Virus record (IMG/VR): IMGVR_UViG_3300028991_000008
Coordinates: 1-17,001 of that record
Direction: 5' to 3' (one strand)
Source: a virus
Lineage: Duplodnaviria > Heunggongvirae > Uroviricota > Caudoviricetes
Length of the DNA stretch: 17,001 nt
Of this stretch, positions 879 through 5,752 are shown piece after piece. The position numbers and the translations under genes are program-made. The first letter of the stretch is position 1, and each line of letters opens with the position of its first letter. Below the pieces are notes generated by a model. The model was given only the letters and a program-made list of their open reading frames with translations, searched no databases and was not told the DNA's origin.

Positions 879-917
879 TTTTAATTTCACTGAAATTTAA
901 TACGTGACTTTCAGGAA

Positions 918-945
918 AATGCCTCGCAGATGAGGGGCATTTTTG
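918..945 (+). terminator. Putative Rho-independent terminator downstream of Rz/Rz1
   Basis: Imperfect GC-rich inverted repeat (tgcctc … gagg(g)gca) followed directly by TTTTT, about 40 nt after the Rz stop. Confidence 0.55.
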
Positions 946-1237
946 TACAGGTATTTCACCGCGCACCGCAGCGCACTCAACCACGTCGAACCAAACCCTT
1001 TGGAATGAGCCTTTGAGTAGTCAGTTAGTGCTGGTGAGCCTTGACGGGCTGATCTCCTATGCAGCAAAGGTTCATCTCAAAGTAAGGCGAACGCTATGAC
1101 AAACCAAGATTCTATAGACCTATCTGATCTTCGTGGAATGGTCAGTTTTCCAGACAAAAGGTAATCACCATAGTCGTATGGCTATGAATCTTGTTGCTGC
1201 AGATAAGCATTTTGTGATTGAAGTGGTCAAATCTCTC

Positions 1238-1266
1238 AAATGCAGTAAAATGCAGTGCGCTATAAT
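1238..1266 (+). promoter_or_regulatory. Candidate sigma70 promoter for the 206-aa accessory gene: consensus -10 TATAAT (1261-1266) overlapped upstream by a tandem AAATGCAGT direct repeat
   Basis: Perfect TATAAT hexamer 29 nt upstream of ATG 1295, followed by GGAGGG/AGGAGA Shine-Dalgarno sequences. No good -35 hexamer. The tandem repeat AAATGCAGT (1238-1246 and 1248-1256) occupies the -35 region. Confidence 0.4.
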
Positions 1267-1294
1267 TCAATAACGGAGGGAGTAAGGAGAAGTC

Positions 1295-1915
1295 ATGAAA
1301 GATCAAGATGTTAGGTTCGCGGTGCATCATAAGCTTTTGAAAGAATCGCATTTAGATCCAGACTGCCTTGTGGTCGATGAATTTTCCATATCCCTTGGCG
1401 CCAGTAGAGCAGACATTGCTGTAATAAATGGTGTTATACACGGGTACGAGCTCAAAAGTGAATATGACTCTTTGGAGCGTTTGCCTCTTCAAATCAAGCA
1501 TTATTCTTCTGTAATGGACAAGGTTACTCTTGTCGTAGCTGAGAAACATCTTGAGGGAGCATTAAAGTTAATCCCAGGTTGGTGGGGCGTTAAAACGGTT
1601 TCTGTTGGGCCAAAAGGCGCCATTCTTATAAAGCACATGCGTGGAGAAAAGCTTAATCGAAACCATGACACATTGATGCTCGCTCAATTGCTTTGGAAAG
1701 ATGAATGTATCGACGTACTTGAACGATGGGGCTATTCCAAAGGAATCAAAAGCAAGCCCCGATTTGAGTTATGGAATATTATTGCGGAAAATATTCCAAT
1801 AGCGAATCTCAGGCTTGAAGTCAGAACAGCCTTAAAGAAACGCGTAGGCTGGAAAGTTAAGGCTTGGCAGGATGAGTCTGCGCCAACCAATAAAGCTGTC
1901 TCACGACTAACGTAA
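1295..1915 (+). CDS. Hypothetical accessory (moron) protein, 206 aa, with a PD-(D/E)xK-like nuclease motif; candidate defence component
   Basis: ORF with strong RBS (AGGAGA) and ATG start. Motif E29 … D40(IAVINGVIHGY)E52-L-K54 fits the restriction-endonuclease-fold catalytic signature. AT-rich composition unlike the flanking phage genes. No counterpart at this position in lambda. Confidence 0.8.
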   Translation: MKDQDVRFAVHHKLLKESHLDPDCLVVDEFSISLGASRADIAVINGVIHGYELKSEYDSLERLPLQIKHYSSVMDKVTLVVAEKHLEGALKLIPGWWGVKTVSVGPKGAILIKHMRGEKLNRNHDTLMLAQLLWKDECIDVLERWGYSKGIKSKPRFELWNIIAENIPIANLRLEVRTALKKRVGWKVKAWQDESAPTNKAVSRLT

Positions 1916-2924
1916 TATGGTGCGTATGTGCAACTTTACGCCATTCTTTAGAGCCGCCAGATTTGTTAGCGCCTAATGATCTTTGGTAAATGTAATCATC
2001 CCCCCAACTAAATTTGGAGCCAAAGACTTGATACTCTGGCGAACTAACAAGGGTAGTACATAAGTTTTTAGTTTGGCCCCATCCATTTCCTTTAACTGCG
2101 GTACCTTTTACAAAGATCCATGAGGTATCGTTCGAATATCTCACTGAGACATACTGAGACATGAAGCGTGGGTCTACGCTCGTAATGGTAGAGCTAGCGG
2201 TGGGATAATCACTAAAACTTGGCGTTCTTCCATTGCTAAAATTCTGTACTACGTACATCCAAAGATCGTATTCATGGCGCGGAATATGATGAACTTGATG
2301 TTGCGGTATCCCTGCCTGTGATGCCGGGTATGCGGTTGAAGATAAAATCAAGTTTCTCCACGGAGCCTGGCCTGATAATGTGTTGACCATGCTTAATGCT
2401 TGTTGTTTTAAACTATCAGTTGCGTTTTGAATATCTCCAAAATCAATGATTACATCAATTAAACTAGGATGAATATTTAAGTGGTTAACCAGACTTGTGA
2501 ATTGGTGCCATGTCTGGGGGGTGATAGATATAGCGAGCCCATTGATTAAGTTGTGTTGAACAGCATGTATATAGTTTGTTGAATATGCGGGAGAAACAAC
2601 AGGGATAATTTCCTTACCATTTACTCTAGCATCTTGGATACACATATCTAGAGGATGATGGCGGCTCGAACCATGTTTATCTAAATATTTAACATCCAGC
2701 AAAACAGGACGATTGGCTTTCCAGGATGCCGCAAGGTTAATACCGAAGTCAGATAAGTAAGAACTCAAACTCTTCTTGTAGCATTCGTTTTCATAATCCC
2801 AGTCTATGTCTGGAATGGTAATGATCGGAGTAAAACCAGAGAGCGTAGTTTGATCTAAAAGCATCAGAGATTCATATTCAGCAGGCTTCCATTTCAGCTG
2901 TGGATAATATTGATGTTGACTCAT
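1857..2924 (-). CDS. Hypothetical accessory (moron) protein, 355 aa, unknown function; candidate defence component, convergent with the 206-aa gene
   Basis: Long minus-strand ORF with a near-perfect Shine-Dalgarno (minus strand AAGGAGTTTTAATG). AT-rich, with an AT-rich upstream region (2925-3060). Its 3' end overlaps the 3' end of the 206-aa gene by 59 nt. I recognise no motif with confidence. Confidence 0.8.
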   Translation of the reverse strand: MSQHQYYPQLKWKPAEYESLMLLDQTTLSGFTPIITIPDIDWDYENECYKKSLSSYLSDFGINLAASWKANRPVLLDVKYLDKHGSSRHHPLDMCIQDARVNGKEIIPVVSPAYSTNYIHAVQHNLINGLAISITPQTWHQFTSLVNHLNIHPSLIDVIIDFGDIQNATDSLKQQALSMVNTLSGQAPWRNLILSSTAYPASQAGIPQHQVHHIPRHEYDLWMYVVQNFSNGRTPSFSDYPTASSTITSVDPRFMSQYVSVRYSNDTSWIFVKGTAVKGNGWGQTKNLCTTLVSSPEYQVFGSKFSWGDDYIYQRSLGANKSGGSKEWRKVAHTHHITLVVRQLYWLAQTHPAKP

Positions 2925-2947
2925 TAAAACTCCTTAAAATCTTTACT

Positions 2948-2985
2948 TATTCTAAGTATAGTGTTATGGCGTAATGCCAATTGTT
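2948..2985 (-). promoter_or_regulatory. Candidate promoter region for the 355-aa gene
   Basis: On the minus strand there is a TATACT -10-like hexamer (plus 2955-2960) and a TTGGCA -35-like hexamer (plus 2975-2980), but the spacing is only 14 nt. The whole region is AT-rich. Assignment is weak. Confidence 0.25.
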
Positions 2986-3147
2986 TTTATACACTTGAAA
3001 ACATTGGGAAAAGTTGAGCTATATCTAAATTTACAAAATAGGATGTTATAGAAATCGAGGTTTCAACTAGGCATGGAACTGCAAAATTTTTAATGCCTGC
3101 ACGCGAAAGTCGTTGGCGGGTCCTTTCCGGTGATCCAGACCGTTACG

Positions 3148-3159
3148 GGGCGGCGACCT
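3148..3159 (+). other. cosN: cosN 12-nt cohesive-end sequence GGGCGGCGACCT (identical to lambda)
   Basis: Exact match to the lambda cohesive end as I recall it, in a flanking context that is also lambda-like. Confidence 0.9.
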
Positions 3160-3197
3160 CGCGGGTTTTCACTATTTATGAAAATTTTTCGGGATCC

Positions 3198-3295
3198 ATG
3201 TCCGGTTTCTCTTCAAGTTAACTACATGAAAAATATAAAAACAGGCTTTCCGTGAACCGGACATGCGCAAAAAATGGGCATGTGAACCGGACATG
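3198..3295 (+). repeat. cosB: cosB-like array of three terminase small-subunit binding repeats (core AACCGGACATG, one inverted and two direct)
   Basis: CATGTCCGGTT at 3198-3208 (inverted) and GTGAACCGGACATG at 3252-3265 and 3282-3295 (direct, 30-bp spacing). An AT-rich tract between the first and second copies could be an IHF bend site. Confidence 0.7.
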
Positions 3296-3342
3296 ACCGA
3301 TTTTGTTGTGATTGTGAGGTGAGAGTTTTTGCGAGGTGAGGA

Positions 3343-3852
3343 GTGGCTACGCAGACTGAAGTTGCCAGGCATTTAAGTCTGACCGATCGCCAGCTTCGCA
3401 GATTGCAGAAATTGCCGGGGGCCCCGATATCGAATAAGCGAGGGCAACTGGATCTGGATGCCTGGCGCGATTTTTACATATCGTATCTGAGGAGAAGTAA
3501 AAACGATGTGCCTGATGGCGATAGCGAAGACGACTATGAGGAGAAATTGCTTATTGCCAGATGGGAACTGACAGCGGAACAGGCTGTTACACAGCAGTTA
3601 AAAAATGAGGTGTCAAAAGGAAAACTTATTGACACCGGGTTCTGTATTTTTGCCCTCAGTAAGCTGGCAATGGCGTTATCCAGTACGCTTGATTCCATCC
3701 CTTTATCCATGCAGCGACAGTTTCCTGATTTAACACCGCGCCATCTTGACCATCTGAAAACCCTTATTGCGAAGGGAGCAAATCAGTGTGCGCGGGCGGG
3801 GGATAAATTACCGGATTTACTCGATGAATATATCAGAGCAACAACTGAATAA
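3343..3852 (+). CDS. nu1: Terminase small subunit (Nu1-like) with a divergent N-terminal DNA-binding domain
   Basis: GTG start after GAGGTGAGGAG. The C-terminal half (…TGFCIFALSKLAMALSSTLDSIPLSMQRQFPDLTPRHLDHLK…LPDLLDEYI) resembles lambda gpNu1. The N-terminal HTH region (EVARHLSLTDRQLRRL) does not. Confidence 0.9.
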   Translation: MATQTEVARHLSLTDRQLRRLQKLPGAPISNKRGQLDLDAWRDFYISYLRRSKNDVPDGDSEDDYEEKLLIARWELTAEQAVTQQLKNEVSKGKLIDTGFCIFALSKLAMALSSTLDSIPLSMQRQFPDLTPRHLDHLKTLIAKGANQCARAGDKLPDLLDEYIRATTE

Positions 3853-5752
3853 TATGATGGGCGCTGTCACAACAGCATTACAGCCCCTGATAAGGGCATT
3901 GCCGGTGACGCCAGTTGAATGGGCTGATCAAAATTATTATCTGCCTAAAGAATCTTCATATGGTGAGGGAGAATGGAAAACGCTGCCATTCCAGATCGCC
4001 ATCATGAACAGCATGGGGAATGATCAGATCCGCACTGTTAATCTGATTAAATCTGCCCGTGTTGGCTATACAAAGATGTTGCTGGGGGTGGTTGGGTATT
4101 TTATTGAGCATAAATCACGAAACAGTCTGCTTTTTCAGCCCACTGATTCTGCTGCTGAAGATTTTATGAAGTCTCACGTGGAGGCGACGATTCGGGACGT
4201 GCCATGCCTGAAAGACCTTTCCCCATGGCTGGGTCGTAAACATCGTGATAATACCCTCACGCTGAAACGCTTTTTATCGGGTGTGGGTTTCTGGTGCCTG
4301 GGTGGTGCGGCAGCAAAAAACTACCGTGAAAAATCCGTGGATGTGGTCTGCTATGACGAACTTTCCTCGTTCGAGCCGGATGTCGAAAAAGAGGGCTCGC
4401 CAACCCTGCTGGGGGATAAACGTATTGAGGGCTCGGTATGGCCAAAATCCATTCGCGGCTCGACGCCTAAAATAAAAGGTTCCTGCCAGATCGAAAAAGC
4501 GGCCAACGAGTCGGCGCATTTCATGCGTTTTTATGTGCCCTGCCCGCACTGTGGGGAGGCGCAGTATCTGAAATTTGGCGATGAATCCACGCCTTTTGGC
4601 CTTAAATGGGAGAAGGACATCCCCGAAAGTGTTTTCTACCTCTGTGAACATCATGGCTGCGTGATCCATCAGTCTGAACTGGACCAGAGCAACGGGCGGT
4701 GGATCTGTGAAAACACGGGGATGTGGACCCGTGACGGTCTGACGTTTTTCAGCGCCGAGGATAATGAAATTCCGCCGCCGCGCTCCATCACGTTCCATAT
4801 CTGGACGGCGTACAGTCCGTTCACCACCTGGGTACAGATAGTCTATGACTGGCTGGATGCACTGAAAGATCCCAACGGCCTGAAAACCTTTGTGAACACC
4901 ACGCTGGGCGAGACCTGGGAAGAGGCCGTGGGCGAAAAACTCGATCACCAGGTACTGATGGATAAGGTCGTGCATTACACGGCGGCGGTACCTGCCCGGG
5001 TGGTTTATCTGACGGCGGGCATTGACTCGCAGAGAAACCGTTTTGAGATGTATGTCTGGGGATGGGCACCGGGAGAGGAAGCTTTTCTGGTGGATAAAAT
5101 CATCATTATGGGGCGTCCCGATGAGGAAGAGACGCTGTTACGTGTGGATGCGGCGATCAACAAAAAATACTGCCATGCAGATGGAACCGAAATGACCATT
5201 TCCCGTGTCTGCTGGGACACCGGGGGGATCGATGGTGAAATTGTTTATCAGAGATCAAAAAAACACGGTGTTTTCCGGGTGCTGCCGGTAAAAGGCGCGT
5301 CTGTCTATGGCAAGCCGGTGATCACCATGCCAAAAACCCGCAATCAGCGGGGCGTGTATCTGTGTGAAGTGGGGACGGACACCGCAAAAGAAATTCTCTA
5401 TGCCCGTATGAAAGCCGATCCCACGCCTGTGGATGAAGCCACGTCGTATGCCATCCGTTTTCCTGATGATCCGGAGATTTTTTCGCAGACAGAGGCGCAG
5501 CAACTGGTCGCGGAAGAGCTTGTGGAGAAGTGGGAAAAAGGAAAGATGCGTCTGCTGTGGGATAACAAAAAGCGGCGTAACGAAGCGCTGGACTGCCTGG
5601 TGTATGCCTACGCGGCATTACGTGTGTCCGTGCAACGCTGGCAGCTTGATCTGGCTGTACTGGCAAAATCCCGGGAAGAAGAGACGACCCGGCCAACCCT
5701 GAAAGAACTGGCAGCGAAGCTGTCCGGAGGAGTGAATGGTTACAGTCGCTGA
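3824..5752 (+). CDS. A: Terminase large subunit (gpA-like)
   Basis: The translation from ATG 3824 (MNISEQQLNNMMGAV…) closely follows lambda gpA over its length (e.g. WADQNYYLPKES, KSARVGYTKMLLGV, WCLGGAAAKNYREKSVDVVCYDE, HIWTAYSPFTTWVQIV). The start overlaps the Nu1 3' end, as in lambda. Confidence 0.95.
   Translation: MNISEQQLNNMMGAVTTALQPLIRALPVTPVEWADQNYYLPKESSYGEGEWKTLPFQIAIMNSMGNDQIRTVNLIKSARVGYTKMLLGVVGYFIEHKSRNSLLFQPTDSAAEDFMKSHVEATIRDVPCLKDLSPWLGRKHRDNTLTLKRFLSGVGFWCLGGAAAKNYREKSVDVVCYDELSSFEPDVEKEGSPTLLGDKRIEGSVWPKSIRGSTPKIKGSCQIEKAANESAHFMRFYVPCPHCGEAQYLKFGDESTPFGLKWEKDIPESVFYLCEHHGCVIHQSELDQSNGRWICENTGMWTRDGLTFFSAEDNEIPPPRSITFHIWTAYSPFTTWVQIVYDWLDALKDPNGLKTFVNTTLGETWEEAVGEKLDHQVLMDKVVHYTAAVPARVVYLTAGIDSQRNRFEMYVWGWAPGEEAFLVDKIIIMGRPDEEETLLRVDAAINKKYCHADGTEMTISRVCWDTGGIDGEIVYQRSKKHGVFRVLPVKGASVYGKPVITMPKTRNQRGVYLCEVGTDTAKEILYARMKADPTPVDEATSYAIRFPDDPEIFSQTEAQQLVAEELVEKWEKGKMRLLWDNKKRRNEALDCLVYAYAALRVSVQRWQLDLAVLAKSREEETTRPTLKELAAKLSGGVNGYSR

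What the first reader, a model, noticed from the sequence alone, without database searches (positions are those of the whole stretch)
1857..1915. 59-nt overlap between the 3' ends of the two convergent accessory genes
The stop of the plus-strand gene (1913-1915) lies 59 nt inside the minus-strand gene, whose stop is at 1857-1859. There is no terminator between them. Each transcript must therefore extend into the other gene as antisense RNA, so the two genes are coupled through transcriptional interference or RNA duplex formation. That is unusual for an operon and suggests reciprocal regulation, for instance toxin-immunity-like balancing.
Basis: seen in the sequence. Interest (0 to 1): 0.5.

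Follow-up and report, generated by a model that had tools for sequence, protein, structure and literature searches.

The report
Ancient tail-to-tail overlap, beta/cII-like defence pair
The 59-base overlap is real, but it is a recently lengthened local version of a tail-to-tail overlap shared by nearly all relatives of this prophage gene pair (the P4 beta/cII-like pair), and its length comes from a lost stop codon, not from a tuned regulatory device.

Summary
Observation confirmed. The + ORF 1295-1915 (sce7726 family, P4 cII-like) and the - ORF 1857-2924 (Beta_protein family, P4 beta / PD-lambda-2 C-like) overlap by 59 nt. RefSeq annotates the same overlap in 127 E. coli genomes.

The pair is a low-GC insert between Rz and cos/Nu1 of a lambdoid prophage. 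It has no gop, HigB or Xre-peptidase gene.

In 189 related pairs from many phyla and phages, all are convergent and 183 overlap (10-266 nt). About 63% (119 of 189) share exactly the same nucleotide register between the two conserved protein cores. The cores abut, so each gene's stop codon must lie inside its partner.

The 59-nt length is specific to this lineage. Relatives 77-85% identical stop sce7726 at TAG where the window has TGG (1865-1867), which leaves 11 nt of overlap. The change is synonymous in beta. The 16 added residues are unconserved and predicted disordered, and their number is what chance gives.

P4, which defends against phages, has a 27-nt gap with a terminator, and two other relatives also lack overlap. 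Obligatory complementarity of the mRNA 3' ends is therefore shown. Selected reciprocal antisense regulation is not shown and remains a minority possibility.

The parts
1295..1915 (+). sce7726-family gene (P4 cII-like), 206 aa. The N-terminal part is PD-(D/E)xK-like (invariant D40, E52, K54) and is followed by a helical domain. The conserved core ends at about W186-K187. Residues 191-206 are a lineage-specific tail.
   Evidence: NCBIfam NF033832 2e-54; PADLOC 'cll' 5e-31; tblastn to P4 cII 2e-11; alignment A1; AF2 mean pLDDT 88 with residues 192-206 below 50; weak fold match to 3dnx, E = 3e-4
1857..2924 (-). Beta-family gene (P4 beta / PD-lambda-2 C-like), 355 aa. TIM-barrel-like fold with a long C-terminal helix (residues 325-350) that is encoded partly inside the overlap.
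   Evidence: Pfam PF14350 9e-56; PADLOC PD-Lambda-2_C 5e-32 and 'beta' 4e-10; AF2 mean pLDDT 92; Foldseek best hits are TrpA/TIM barrels, E about 2e-4, TM 0.37-0.5
1857..1915 (.). The 59-nt 3'-3' overlap. It encodes beta residues 337-355 plus the beta stop on the - strand, and sce7726 residues 188-206 plus the sce7726 stop on the + strand.
1865..1867 (+). TGG (Trp191 of sce7726) where relatives 77-85% identical have the stop codon TAG. The A-to-G difference at 1866 is synonymous in beta (Ala353, GCT to GCC). It lengthens the overlap from 11 to 59 nt.
   Evidence: junction alignment with L008-L011; L101-L113; 190-aa homologues P0004, P0014, P0019
1284..1289 (+). AAGGAG Shine-Dalgarno of sce7726, 5 nt before the ATG at 1295
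   Evidence: sequence
2930..2935 (-). AAGGAG Shine-Dalgarno of beta, 5 nt before the ATG at 2924-2922
   Evidence: sequence
1224..1251 (+). Sigma-70-like promoter candidate for sce7726 (TGGTCA-16-TAAAAT, 9 of 12). This is a consensus match only.
2967..2989 (+). Weak terminator-like hairpin with a T-run on the + strand, just beyond the beta start codon. It is the first such site a sce7726 or late transcript would meet after crossing the whole beta gene in antisense. Not significant by itself.
   Evidence: 5 sites found, 2.2 expected
1080..3100 (.). Low-GC (36-44%) accessory insert between the lysis cassette (R 82-444, Rz 426-878) and cos/Nu1. The flanks are 47-56% GC.
3148..3159 (+). GGGCGGCGACCT, identical to the lambda cohesive-end (cosN) sequence. 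It places the cassette at the right end of the packaged genome, next to cos, as in P4.
   Evidence: sequence; the identification as lambda cos rests on my own knowledge; Nu1 and terminase genes lie downstream

Best explanation
The overlap is a structural inheritance of the beta/sce7726 (P4 beta/cII-like) gene pair, not a device specific to this locus.

In the ancestral pair the conserved C-terminal cores of the two convergent genes abut with no spacer: sce7726 '...LKxRxxW[RK]' lies against beta '...WxxxGxNHHxxxVVxxQ[LI]'. Each gene therefore has to find its stop codon inside the partner's coding sequence. Any indel there would damage one or both proteins, so the register is frozen.

Where each gene stops depends on the partner's codons. 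An 'NTT-ANN' codon pair on one strand (seen at Leu-Lys, CTT AAA, in sce7726 and at Ile-Asn, ATT AAC, in beta) reads TAA in the other gene's frame. As a result the tails lengthen and shorten in steps of 3 nt.

The window belongs to a sub-clade that acquired a 39-nt insertion between the cores. In that sub-clade the overlap is labile (gaps of 39 and 14 nt, overlaps of 11 and 59 nt). The E. coli/E. albertii lineage went from 11 to 59 nt by a single TAG-to-TGG change that is silent in beta and adds 16 disordered residues to sce7726.

Shown consequences: the two mRNAs must be complementary at their 3' ends, no intrinsic terminator separates them, and the genes are physically inseparable.

Inferred: the pair is the two-gene core shared by phage-defence modules (gop-beta-cII, PD-lambda-2-like operons). 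It is carried here as a prophage accessory insert next to cos. A PD-(D/E)xK-like protein (sce7726) probably acts with or is controlled by the TIM-barrel-like beta protein.
For: Family survey. 73 pairs from species-representative genomes and phages, 39 from viral contigs and 77 from metagenomes are all convergent, and 70 + 38 + 75 of them overlap. Overlap length is 2 mod 3 in 65/73 and 75/77. The core-to-core register is identical (+2 nt) in 57/73 and 62/77. The record titles name Gordonia and Mycolicibacterium phages, Patescibacteria, Bacteroidota, Acidobacteriota, Myxococcota and Proteobacteria.

Stop-codon rule and tail variability: anchored two-frame display.

Window-specific extension: TAG versus TGG, synonymous in beta. 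Relatives with sce7726 of 190 aa. Tail pLDDT below 50. The run-on length is within chance.

The sub-clade with the 39-nt insertion shows overlaps of -39, -14, 11 and 59 nt.

No terminator enrichment: 11/73 per strand against about 10% background, and no structure in the window.

P4 has a 27-nt gap plus a terminator and its system defends against lambda and P1 (PMC9122126).

Gene identities.
Against: A frozen register does not exclude that the arrangement was selected in the first place. 189 of 189 pairs are convergent, including the three without overlap, which is more than dual-coding constraint alone requires for those three.

No transcript data were available, so real 3' ends, RNA duplexes and interference are unknown.

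The register was computed with HMMs seeded on the window proteins and extrapolated without indels at the profile ends.

Many loci come from mobile elements, so wide taxonomic spread may partly reflect horizontal transfer. Protein identities of 17-45% nevertheless indicate deep divergence.

The defence function of this gop-less pair is inferred, not tested.
Confidence: 0.65

Rival explanations
1. Selected antisense coupling. Convergent transcription without a terminator is the point of the architecture. Each mRNA extends into the partner, and RNA polymerase collision or RNase III cleavage of the 3' duplex sets the beta:sce7726 ratio. In this prophage, Q-antiterminated late transcription on the + strand would raise sce7726 and silence beta on induction or infection.
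For: All 189 pairs are convergent, including the non-overlapping ones. No conserved intrinsic terminators. The mRNAs are necessarily complementary (geometry). sce7726 is co-directional with the lysis and terminase genes here, and in L015 and L020 it sits directly after Rz in the same orientation. From my own knowledge, there are precedents in 3'-overlapping type I toxin-antitoxin pairs and in convergent restriction-modification genes.
Against: The CDS overlap varies from 10 to 266 nt and is lost in P4, which is functional (PMC9122126), and in L013 and L016. The change from 11 to 59 nt in this lineage is a silent-site accident. Without terminators the RNA overlap would be long whatever the CDS overlap is, so the 59 nt itself adds nothing. 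P4 has inserted a strong terminator for cII. There are no expression data.
Confidence: 0.18
2. Linkage selection. The overlap persists because it makes two co-dependent genes of a mobile defence or addiction module inseparable by recombination or deletion.
For: The pair is almost never found apart when enough flank is available. sce7726 occurs without beta only in Mx4 (L007) and L015. The pair combines with different upstream partners (gop; HigB + Xre-peptidase; none) as a unit.
Against: Simple adjacency gives nearly the same linkage. The non-overlapping members are still paired. No test can separate this idea from a frozen accident.
Confidence: 0.1
3. Annotation or ORF artefact: one of the two ORFs does not really extend into the overlap in vivo. 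For example, the last 16 codons of sce7726 may not be translated or may be functionless, or the sequence may contain an error.
For: Pallejà et al. 2008 (PMC2478687) classed 124 of 178 long convergent overlaps as 3'-end extensions caused by stop-codon mutation or frameshift. The sce7726 tail is unconserved and disordered.
Against: The same sequence is present in 127 complete E. coli genomes, 29 viral contigs and several metagenomes, so it is not a sequencing error. There is no stop before 1913. An 11-nt overlap would remain even with the ancestral stop. The part of beta inside the overlap is a confidently predicted helix.
Confidence: 0.05

Closest known systems
P4 satellite gop-beta-cII locus (DefenseFinder/PADLOC 'Rst_gop_beta_cll'; Ghisotti et al. 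1990; Rousset et al. 2022, PMC9122126)
   Same: Homologous beta (PF14350) and cII (sce7726 family) genes in convergent orientation. Both cassettes lie next to cos in a temperate mobile element. The P4 system protects against lambda and P1, and its toxicity is triggered by phage orf184 (bioRxiv 10.1101/2023.04.06.535777).
   Different: There is no gop, the toxin of the P4 system, in the window or in any of the 79 other loci examined. P4 cII is 264 aa with an extra tail of about 80 aa. P4 beta and cII do not overlap: a 27-nt gap holds an annotated terminator. Identity is low (cII 27%).
PD-lambda-2 (Vassallo et al. 2022, PMC9519451)
   Same: The window's beta scores best on the PADLOC PD-Lambda-2_C models (5e-32). 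In 29 of 73 related loci the beta gene is preceded by PD-Lambda-2 A (HigB-like) and B (Xre-peptidase M78) in an operon.
   Different: The window has no A or B gene. PD-lambda-2 is described as a three-gene system, without the convergent sce7726 partner seen here.
Long convergent gene overlaps produced by stop-codon loss (Pallejà et al. 2008, PMC2478687; Huvet & Stumpf 2014, PMC4161906)
   Same: The mechanism that produced the 59-nt length is the same: a point mutation of a stop codon with read-through to the next in-frame stop inside the neighbour.
   Different: Such overlaps are reported to be conserved mostly in very close species only. Here the underlying overlap and its register are conserved across phyla.
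3'-overlapping antisense pairs in type I toxin-antitoxin systems and convergent restriction-modification genes (from my own knowledge; not tested here)
   Same: Convergent transcription units whose RNAs are complementary at their 3' ends.
   Different: In those systems one partner is usually a non-coding RNA, or the regulation has been shown experimentally. Here both partners encode conserved proteins and no regulation has been shown.

Membership tests
gop-beta-cII (Rst_gop_beta_cll) | gop toxin gene immediately upstream of beta | tested here: not met
   No ORF of more than 66 aa lies between beta (2924) and Nu1 (3343) on the - strand. The PADLOC gop model hits P4 gop at 5e-70 but hits none of the three small window ORFs tested, 3172-3372 (-), 897-1067 (-) and 1133-1273 (+). 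phmmer with P4 gop finds only P4 among 80 sequences.
gop-beta-cII (Rst_gop_beta_cll) | beta homologue (PF14350) | tested here: met
   PF14350 9e-56 over the full length; PADLOC 'beta' 4e-10
gop-beta-cII (Rst_gop_beta_cll) | cII homologue (sce7726 family) convergent to beta | tested here: met
   NF033832 2e-54; PADLOC 'cll' 5e-31; tblastn to P4 cII 2e-11; orientation
gop-beta-cII (Rst_gop_beta_cll) | anti-phage / abortive-infection activity | not testable with these tools
   Needs plaque assays. Shown only for the P4-type three-gene locus (PMC9122126).
PD-lambda-2 | A: HigB-like toxin gene | tested here: not met
   Absent from the window: there are no suitable ORFs upstream of beta. It is present in related loci, e.g. 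L033 with PD-Lambda-2_A 5e-34 and PF09907.
PD-lambda-2 | B: Xre HTH fused to an M78/IrrE peptidase | tested here: not met
   Absent from the window. It is present in 29 of 73 related loci, e.g. L055 with PD-Lambda-2_B 8e-146.
PD-lambda-2 | C: Beta_protein family gene | tested here: met
   PADLOC PD-Lambda-2_C 4.7e-32 and 2.5e-25
Convergent overlap created by 3'-end extension (stop-codon loss) | close orthologues terminate earlier at a stop codon that is mutated in the query | tested here: met
   TAG in L008-L011 and in nine of the ten 77%-clade loci among L101-L113 (L101-L103, L105, L107-L109, L112, L113) against TGG at 1865-1867. Homologues of 190 aa.
Convergent overlap created by 3'-end extension (stop-codon loss) | the extension is unconserved or unstructured | tested here: met
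   Alignment A1 shows no conservation after WK(V)(K/R). pLDDT is below 50 for residues 192-206.
Antisense-coupled convergent pair (type I TA-like / excludon-like) | transcripts shown to overlap and to affect each other's level | not testable with these tools
   No transcript data. Only the absence of terminator motifs could be shown.
PD-(D/E)xK nuclease superfamily (sce7726 N-terminal domain) | D...(D/E)xK catalytic motif on a restriction-endonuclease-like fold | tested here: inconclusive
   D40, E52 and K54 are invariant in 23 sequences. The best fold match is 3dnx (E = 3e-4, TM 0.38-0.51), followed by splicing endonucleases and Can2-type nucleases at non-significant E values. A PDB sequence search found nothing.

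The most novel reading that the evidence does not exclude
The fixed-register, terminator-less 3' overlap of beta and sce7726 is a selected switch. In the lysogen, convergent transcription holds the PD-(D/E)xK-like sce7726 protein and the beta protein at a set ratio. When + strand transcription surges, through prophage late read-through from pR' or a perturbation caused by an infecting phage, beta is silenced by antisense and collision while sce7726 rises, which fires the defence. On this reading sce7726 would also be an unrecognised fourth component of PD-lambda-2-type systems.
Probability: 0.12. Interest if true: 0.7.

Novelty: new variant of a known kind. Interest (0 to 1): 0.4.

Why it matters
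For this locus the result is mainly a clarification. The two 'accessory genes' are a gop-less relative of the P4 beta/cII pair. The 59-nt figure has no special meaning.

Two points go beyond the locus, and I found neither in the papers I could search.

(i) beta and sce7726 form a near-obligate convergent pair whose coding cores abut in the same nucleotide register across very distant bacteria and phages. Convergent overlaps are reported to be conserved mostly only among close species, so this is an unusually deeply conserved one. It is a clean natural example of how each gene's stop codon is dictated by the partner's codon choice.

(ii) This pair appears to be the common core of two named defence systems (gop-beta-cII and PD-lambda-2-like operons). 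That suggests the systems share a mechanism and that current three-gene definitions may miss a component.

The arrangement also causes annotation errors: the sce7726 homologue is not annotated in phages DumpsterDude and Mycofy1.

Tried and rejected
- Intrinsic terminators near either 3' end: none in the window, and no enrichment across 73 loci.
- Conserved RNA structure in the overlap: not better than shuffles. I did not attempt covariation analysis because the region codes for protein on both strands.
- A sigma-70 promoter for beta between 2925 and 3160 on the - strand: no acceptable match.
- gop or another third gene in the window: none.
- NCBIfam model for beta proteins: none hits.
- PDB sequence search for sce7726: no meaningful hit.
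The closer alignment A2 returned mostly near-identical prophages.
- Looking for annotated PD-lambda-2 operons on plasmids with the B protein: found HigB + ImmA/IrrE pairs without beta, which was uninformative for this question.
- Ghisotti et al. 1990 could not be read, so the P4 arrangement is taken from the GenBank record.
- megablast of the cassette against the phage collection: no match. It is known only from prophages in bacterial genomes.
- The idea that the sce7726 tail is a conserved functional extension is rejected. It is not conserved, it is disordered, and apparent conservation of tails in other clades is the shadow of the partner's conserved residues on the other strand.

Full report
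**1. The observation**

The window holds a + strand ORF at 1295-1915 (206 aa, stop TAA at 1913-1915) and a - strand ORF at 1857-2924 (355 aa, stop at 1857-1859). They share 59 nt.

Both are genuine genes. The + gene matches NCBIfam sce7726_fam at 184 bits against a cut-off of 70. The - gene matches Pfam Beta_protein PF14350 end to end at 190 bits against a cut-off of 27. Each has an AAGGAG ribosome-binding site 5 nt before its ATG.

A 2-kb stretch containing both genes occurs at 99% identity or higher in 127 of 5426 complete E. coli genomes. PGAP annotates the same two CDS there with the same 59-nt overlap.

**2. Context**

The pair is a low-GC (36-44%) insert in a lambdoid prophage. It lies between the lysis genes (lysozyme 82-444, Rz 426-878) and cos/Nu1/terminase. 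GGGCGGCGACCT at 3148-3159 is the lambda cohesive-end sequence (my own knowledge). Nu1 starts at 3343 and TerL at 3767.

sce7726 points the same way as the lysis and packaging genes, and beta points against them. In Xenorhabdus (L015) and Photorhabdus (L020) a sce7726 homologue also sits directly after Rz in the same orientation.

**3. What the genes are**

PADLOC assigns the + gene to 'cll' (5e-31). It assigns the - gene to PD-Lambda-2_C (5e-32) and 'beta' (4e-10). tblastn links the + gene to P4 cII (2e-11).

In P4 the order is gop, beta (rightward), then cII (leftward). Beta and cII are therefore convergent, as they are here. P4 gop-beta-cII protects against lambda and P1, and gop and beta are thought to be a toxin-antitoxin pair (Rousset et al. 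2022, PMC9122126). The toxicity of the system is triggered by phage orf184 (bioRxiv 10.1101/2023.04.06.535777). PD-lambda-2C is required for defence but not for neutralising the toxin (Vassallo et al. 2022, PMC9519451).

The window has no gop. The positive control worked: the PADLOC gop model hits P4 gop at 5e-70, but phmmer with P4 gop found nothing in the window or in 79 other loci. The window also has no HigB or Xre-peptidase gene.

Structure predictions are confident, with mean pLDDT of 88 and 92. sce7726 has an alpha/beta N-terminal domain with invariant D40, E52 and K54, a PD-(D/E)xK-type motif, followed by a helical domain. Its best fold match is 3dnx at E = 3e-4, followed by nuclease folds at weak scores. 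Beta resembles TIM barrels (TrpA, E about 2e-4, TM 0.37-0.5) and ends in a long helix at residues 325-350.

**4. Is the arrangement conserved?**

I collected three samples:
- 72 loci from species-representative genomes
- 40 loci from viral contigs
- 80 loci from metagenomes

I also included annotated phage loci. I located both genes in each locus with HMMs built from the window proteins and their hits.

Every pair with enough flanking sequence is convergent: 73 + 39 + 77 = 189. Of these, 183 overlap, by 10 to 266 nt, with a median of 50. Three clear exceptions have no overlap:
- P4: gap of 27 nt, with a strong 13-bp-stem terminator
- Photobacterium galatheae L013: gap of 14 nt
- Xenorhabdus vietnamensis L016: gap of 39 nt

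The other three apparent non-overlaps are a frameshifted beta (L117) and two pairs with only a partial beta match (L134, on a contig of about 1x coverage, and L184). sce7726 without beta was seen only in phage Mx4 and in L015.

**5. A frozen register**

Overlap length is 2 mod 3 in 65 of 73 and in 75 of 77 pairs. The distance between the last conserved sce7726 position ('...LKxRxxW[RK]') and a fixed conserved beta position ('...NHHxxxVVxxQ[LI]') is exactly the same (+2 nt) in 57 of 73 and 62 of 77 pairs.

By their record titles these pairs come from Gordonia and Mycolicibacterium phages, Patescibacteria, Bacteroidota, Acidobacteriota, Myxococcota, Armatimonadota and many Proteobacteria. Their protein identity to the window is 17-45%.

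The two conserved cores therefore abut. Each protein's variable tail (sce7726 0-27 aa in most pairs, up to 34 aa; beta 0-47 aa) is encoded antisense inside the partner's conserved core.

The two-frame display shows how the stops arise. An 'NTT-ANN' codon pair on one strand reads TAA in the other gene's frame. Beta often stops opposite the invariant Leu-Lys of sce7726 when Leu is CTT (or CTC, which gives TGA). It reads on for 23-47 more residues when Leu is CTG or TTG. sce7726 often stops opposite the conserved Ile-Asn of beta.

Overlap length is thus a by-product of the partner's synonymous codon choice. Apparent conservation of some tails is the shadow of the partner's conserved residues.

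**6. The window's 59 nt**

The window belongs to a sub-clade (window, L001, L008-L016) whose register is about -37. This means a 39-nt insertion separates the cores, and the insertion encodes an 11-residue beta tail ending PA[KR]P.

Within this sub-clade the overlap is labile:
- L016: gap of 39 nt
- L013: gap of 14 nt
- Edwardsiella, Klebsiella, Pantoea and Pectobacterium, plus nine viral contigs: overlap of 11 nt
- E. coli and E. albertii: overlap of 59 nt

The junction alignment shows TAG in the 11-nt relatives where the window has TGG (1865-1867). The A/G difference at 1866 falls on the third position of beta Ala353 (GCT/GCC), so it is silent in beta.

The 16 added residues (WQDESAPTNKAVSRLT) are not conserved and have pLDDT below 50. 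Stop density in this antisense frame is 8.7% per codon. A 16-codon run-on is therefore unremarkable, with P of about 0.23 (my arithmetic).

In contrast, the beta residues encoded inside the overlap belong to a confidently predicted helix.

**7. Terminators and RNA**

Neither strand has a terminator-like site near the 3' ends. Folding of 1830-1960 (+) and 1790-1940 (-) is no better than shuffles.

Across the family, terminator-like motifs within 250 nt downstream of each stop occur in 11 of 73 loci per strand. The rate in random windows is about 10%.

The mRNAs must therefore be complementary at least across the CDS overlap, and probably much further. This holds equally for the 11-nt and the 59-nt variants, so the extra 48 nt adds nothing to any antisense effect.

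The first + strand terminator-like site after sce7726 is a weak hairpin at 2967-2979, beyond the beta start codon.

**8. Interpretation**

The best-supported reading is that the overlap is an ancestral property of the beta/sce7726 pair. It is frozen by dual-coding constraint wherever the cores abut, and it is free to drift wherever a spacer has arisen. The 59-nt value is a neutral stop-codon loss.

This matches the general finding that long convergent overlaps mostly arise by 3'-end extension (Pallejà et al. 2008, PMC2478687). It differs from that finding in one respect: the underlying overlap is conserved far beyond 'very close species'.

The step from there to selected reciprocal regulation is not supported by the labile overlap, or by P4, which has a gap and a terminator and still defends.

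It cannot be excluded, however. Convergent orientation is universal, even where there is no overlap, and there are no expression data. I give the possibilities these weights: 0.65 for the frozen/neutral reading, 0.18 for selected antisense coupling, 0.10 for linkage selection and 0.05 for artefact.

**9. Classification**

The locus is not a member of gop-beta-cII, because gop is absent. It is not a member of PD-lambda-2, because the A and B genes are absent. It is a two-gene variant consisting of the core that both systems share.

I found no paper that describes the conserved overlap or its register, or that names sce7726 as a partner of PD-lambda-2-type operons. The searchable library is incomplete, so this is absence of evidence only.

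Noticed in passing
L030, L033, L035, L036, L039, L045-L052, L054, L055, L057-L060, L062-L064, L066-L069, L071, L076 (upstream of beta, same strand): In 29 of 73 related loci the beta gene is the third gene of a PD-lambda-2-like operon: HigB-like A, then Xre-peptidase M78 B, then beta. sce7726 converges on it as a fourth gene. PD-lambda-2 is published as a three-gene system. The functional ECOR42 clone extends only about 396 bp past gene C, so it cannot have held an intact convergent sce7726 gene.
   Followed up: partly
L003 (Gordonia phage DumpsterDude) 2432-3133 +; L005 (Mycolicibacterium phage Mycofy1) 2480-3142 +: The sce7726 homologue is not annotated in these two phage records. In DumpsterDude a small reverse-strand gene 32 is annotated inside it. 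The cause is probably that the real gene overlaps the neighbouring beta gene by 89-107 nt.
   Followed up: partly
window 1872 (A here, C in most E. coli copies, e.g. L001, L012, L080-L116): A single SNP inside the overlap changes both proteins at once: sce7726 D193/A193 and beta H351/Q351.
   Followed up: no
window 3148-3159 and 3343-5752: A lambda-type cos sequence (GGGCGGCGACCT) is followed by Nu1-like and large-terminase ORFs. The cassette therefore sits at the very right end of the packaged genome, next to cos, as the defence hotspot of P4 does.
   Followed up: partly
H16 (NZ_CP027312.1), H17 (NZ_CP115370.1); L001 8417-9630: In some E. coli genomes an IS3 or IS2 element interrupts the beta/sce7726 region. 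In strain 14EC047 an IS3 element splits the small terminase gene and the large terminase is frameshifted, so several of these prophages are defective.
   Followed up: no
L117 3501-4566; L075 about 4450-5130: The beta gene is frameshifted (L117) or degraded (L075) while sce7726 stays intact. These are examples of decay of the pair.
   Followed up: partly
window 922-945 (+): A terminator-like hairpin with a T-run lies directly after Rz, upstream of the insert. Late, Q-antiterminated transcription would have to read through it, and through the whole cassette antisense to beta, to reach cos and the head genes.
   Followed up: no
L070, L072, L073 (Streptococcaceae, Enterococcus, Listeria): Firmicutes pairs have a different register (+7) and a different phase (overlap is 1 mod 3, at 10 or 31 nt). 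L070 and L073 have a 13-14-bp-stem hairpin with a T-run 11-12 nt past the beta stop, inside sce7726.
   Followed up: no
L120 (Paraburkholderia plasmid), L121 (Acinetobacter plasmid): HigB + ImmA/IrrE (PD-lambda-2 A/B-like) pairs occur on plasmids without any beta gene. The A/B module and the beta/sce7726 module therefore appear to be separable units.
   Followed up: no
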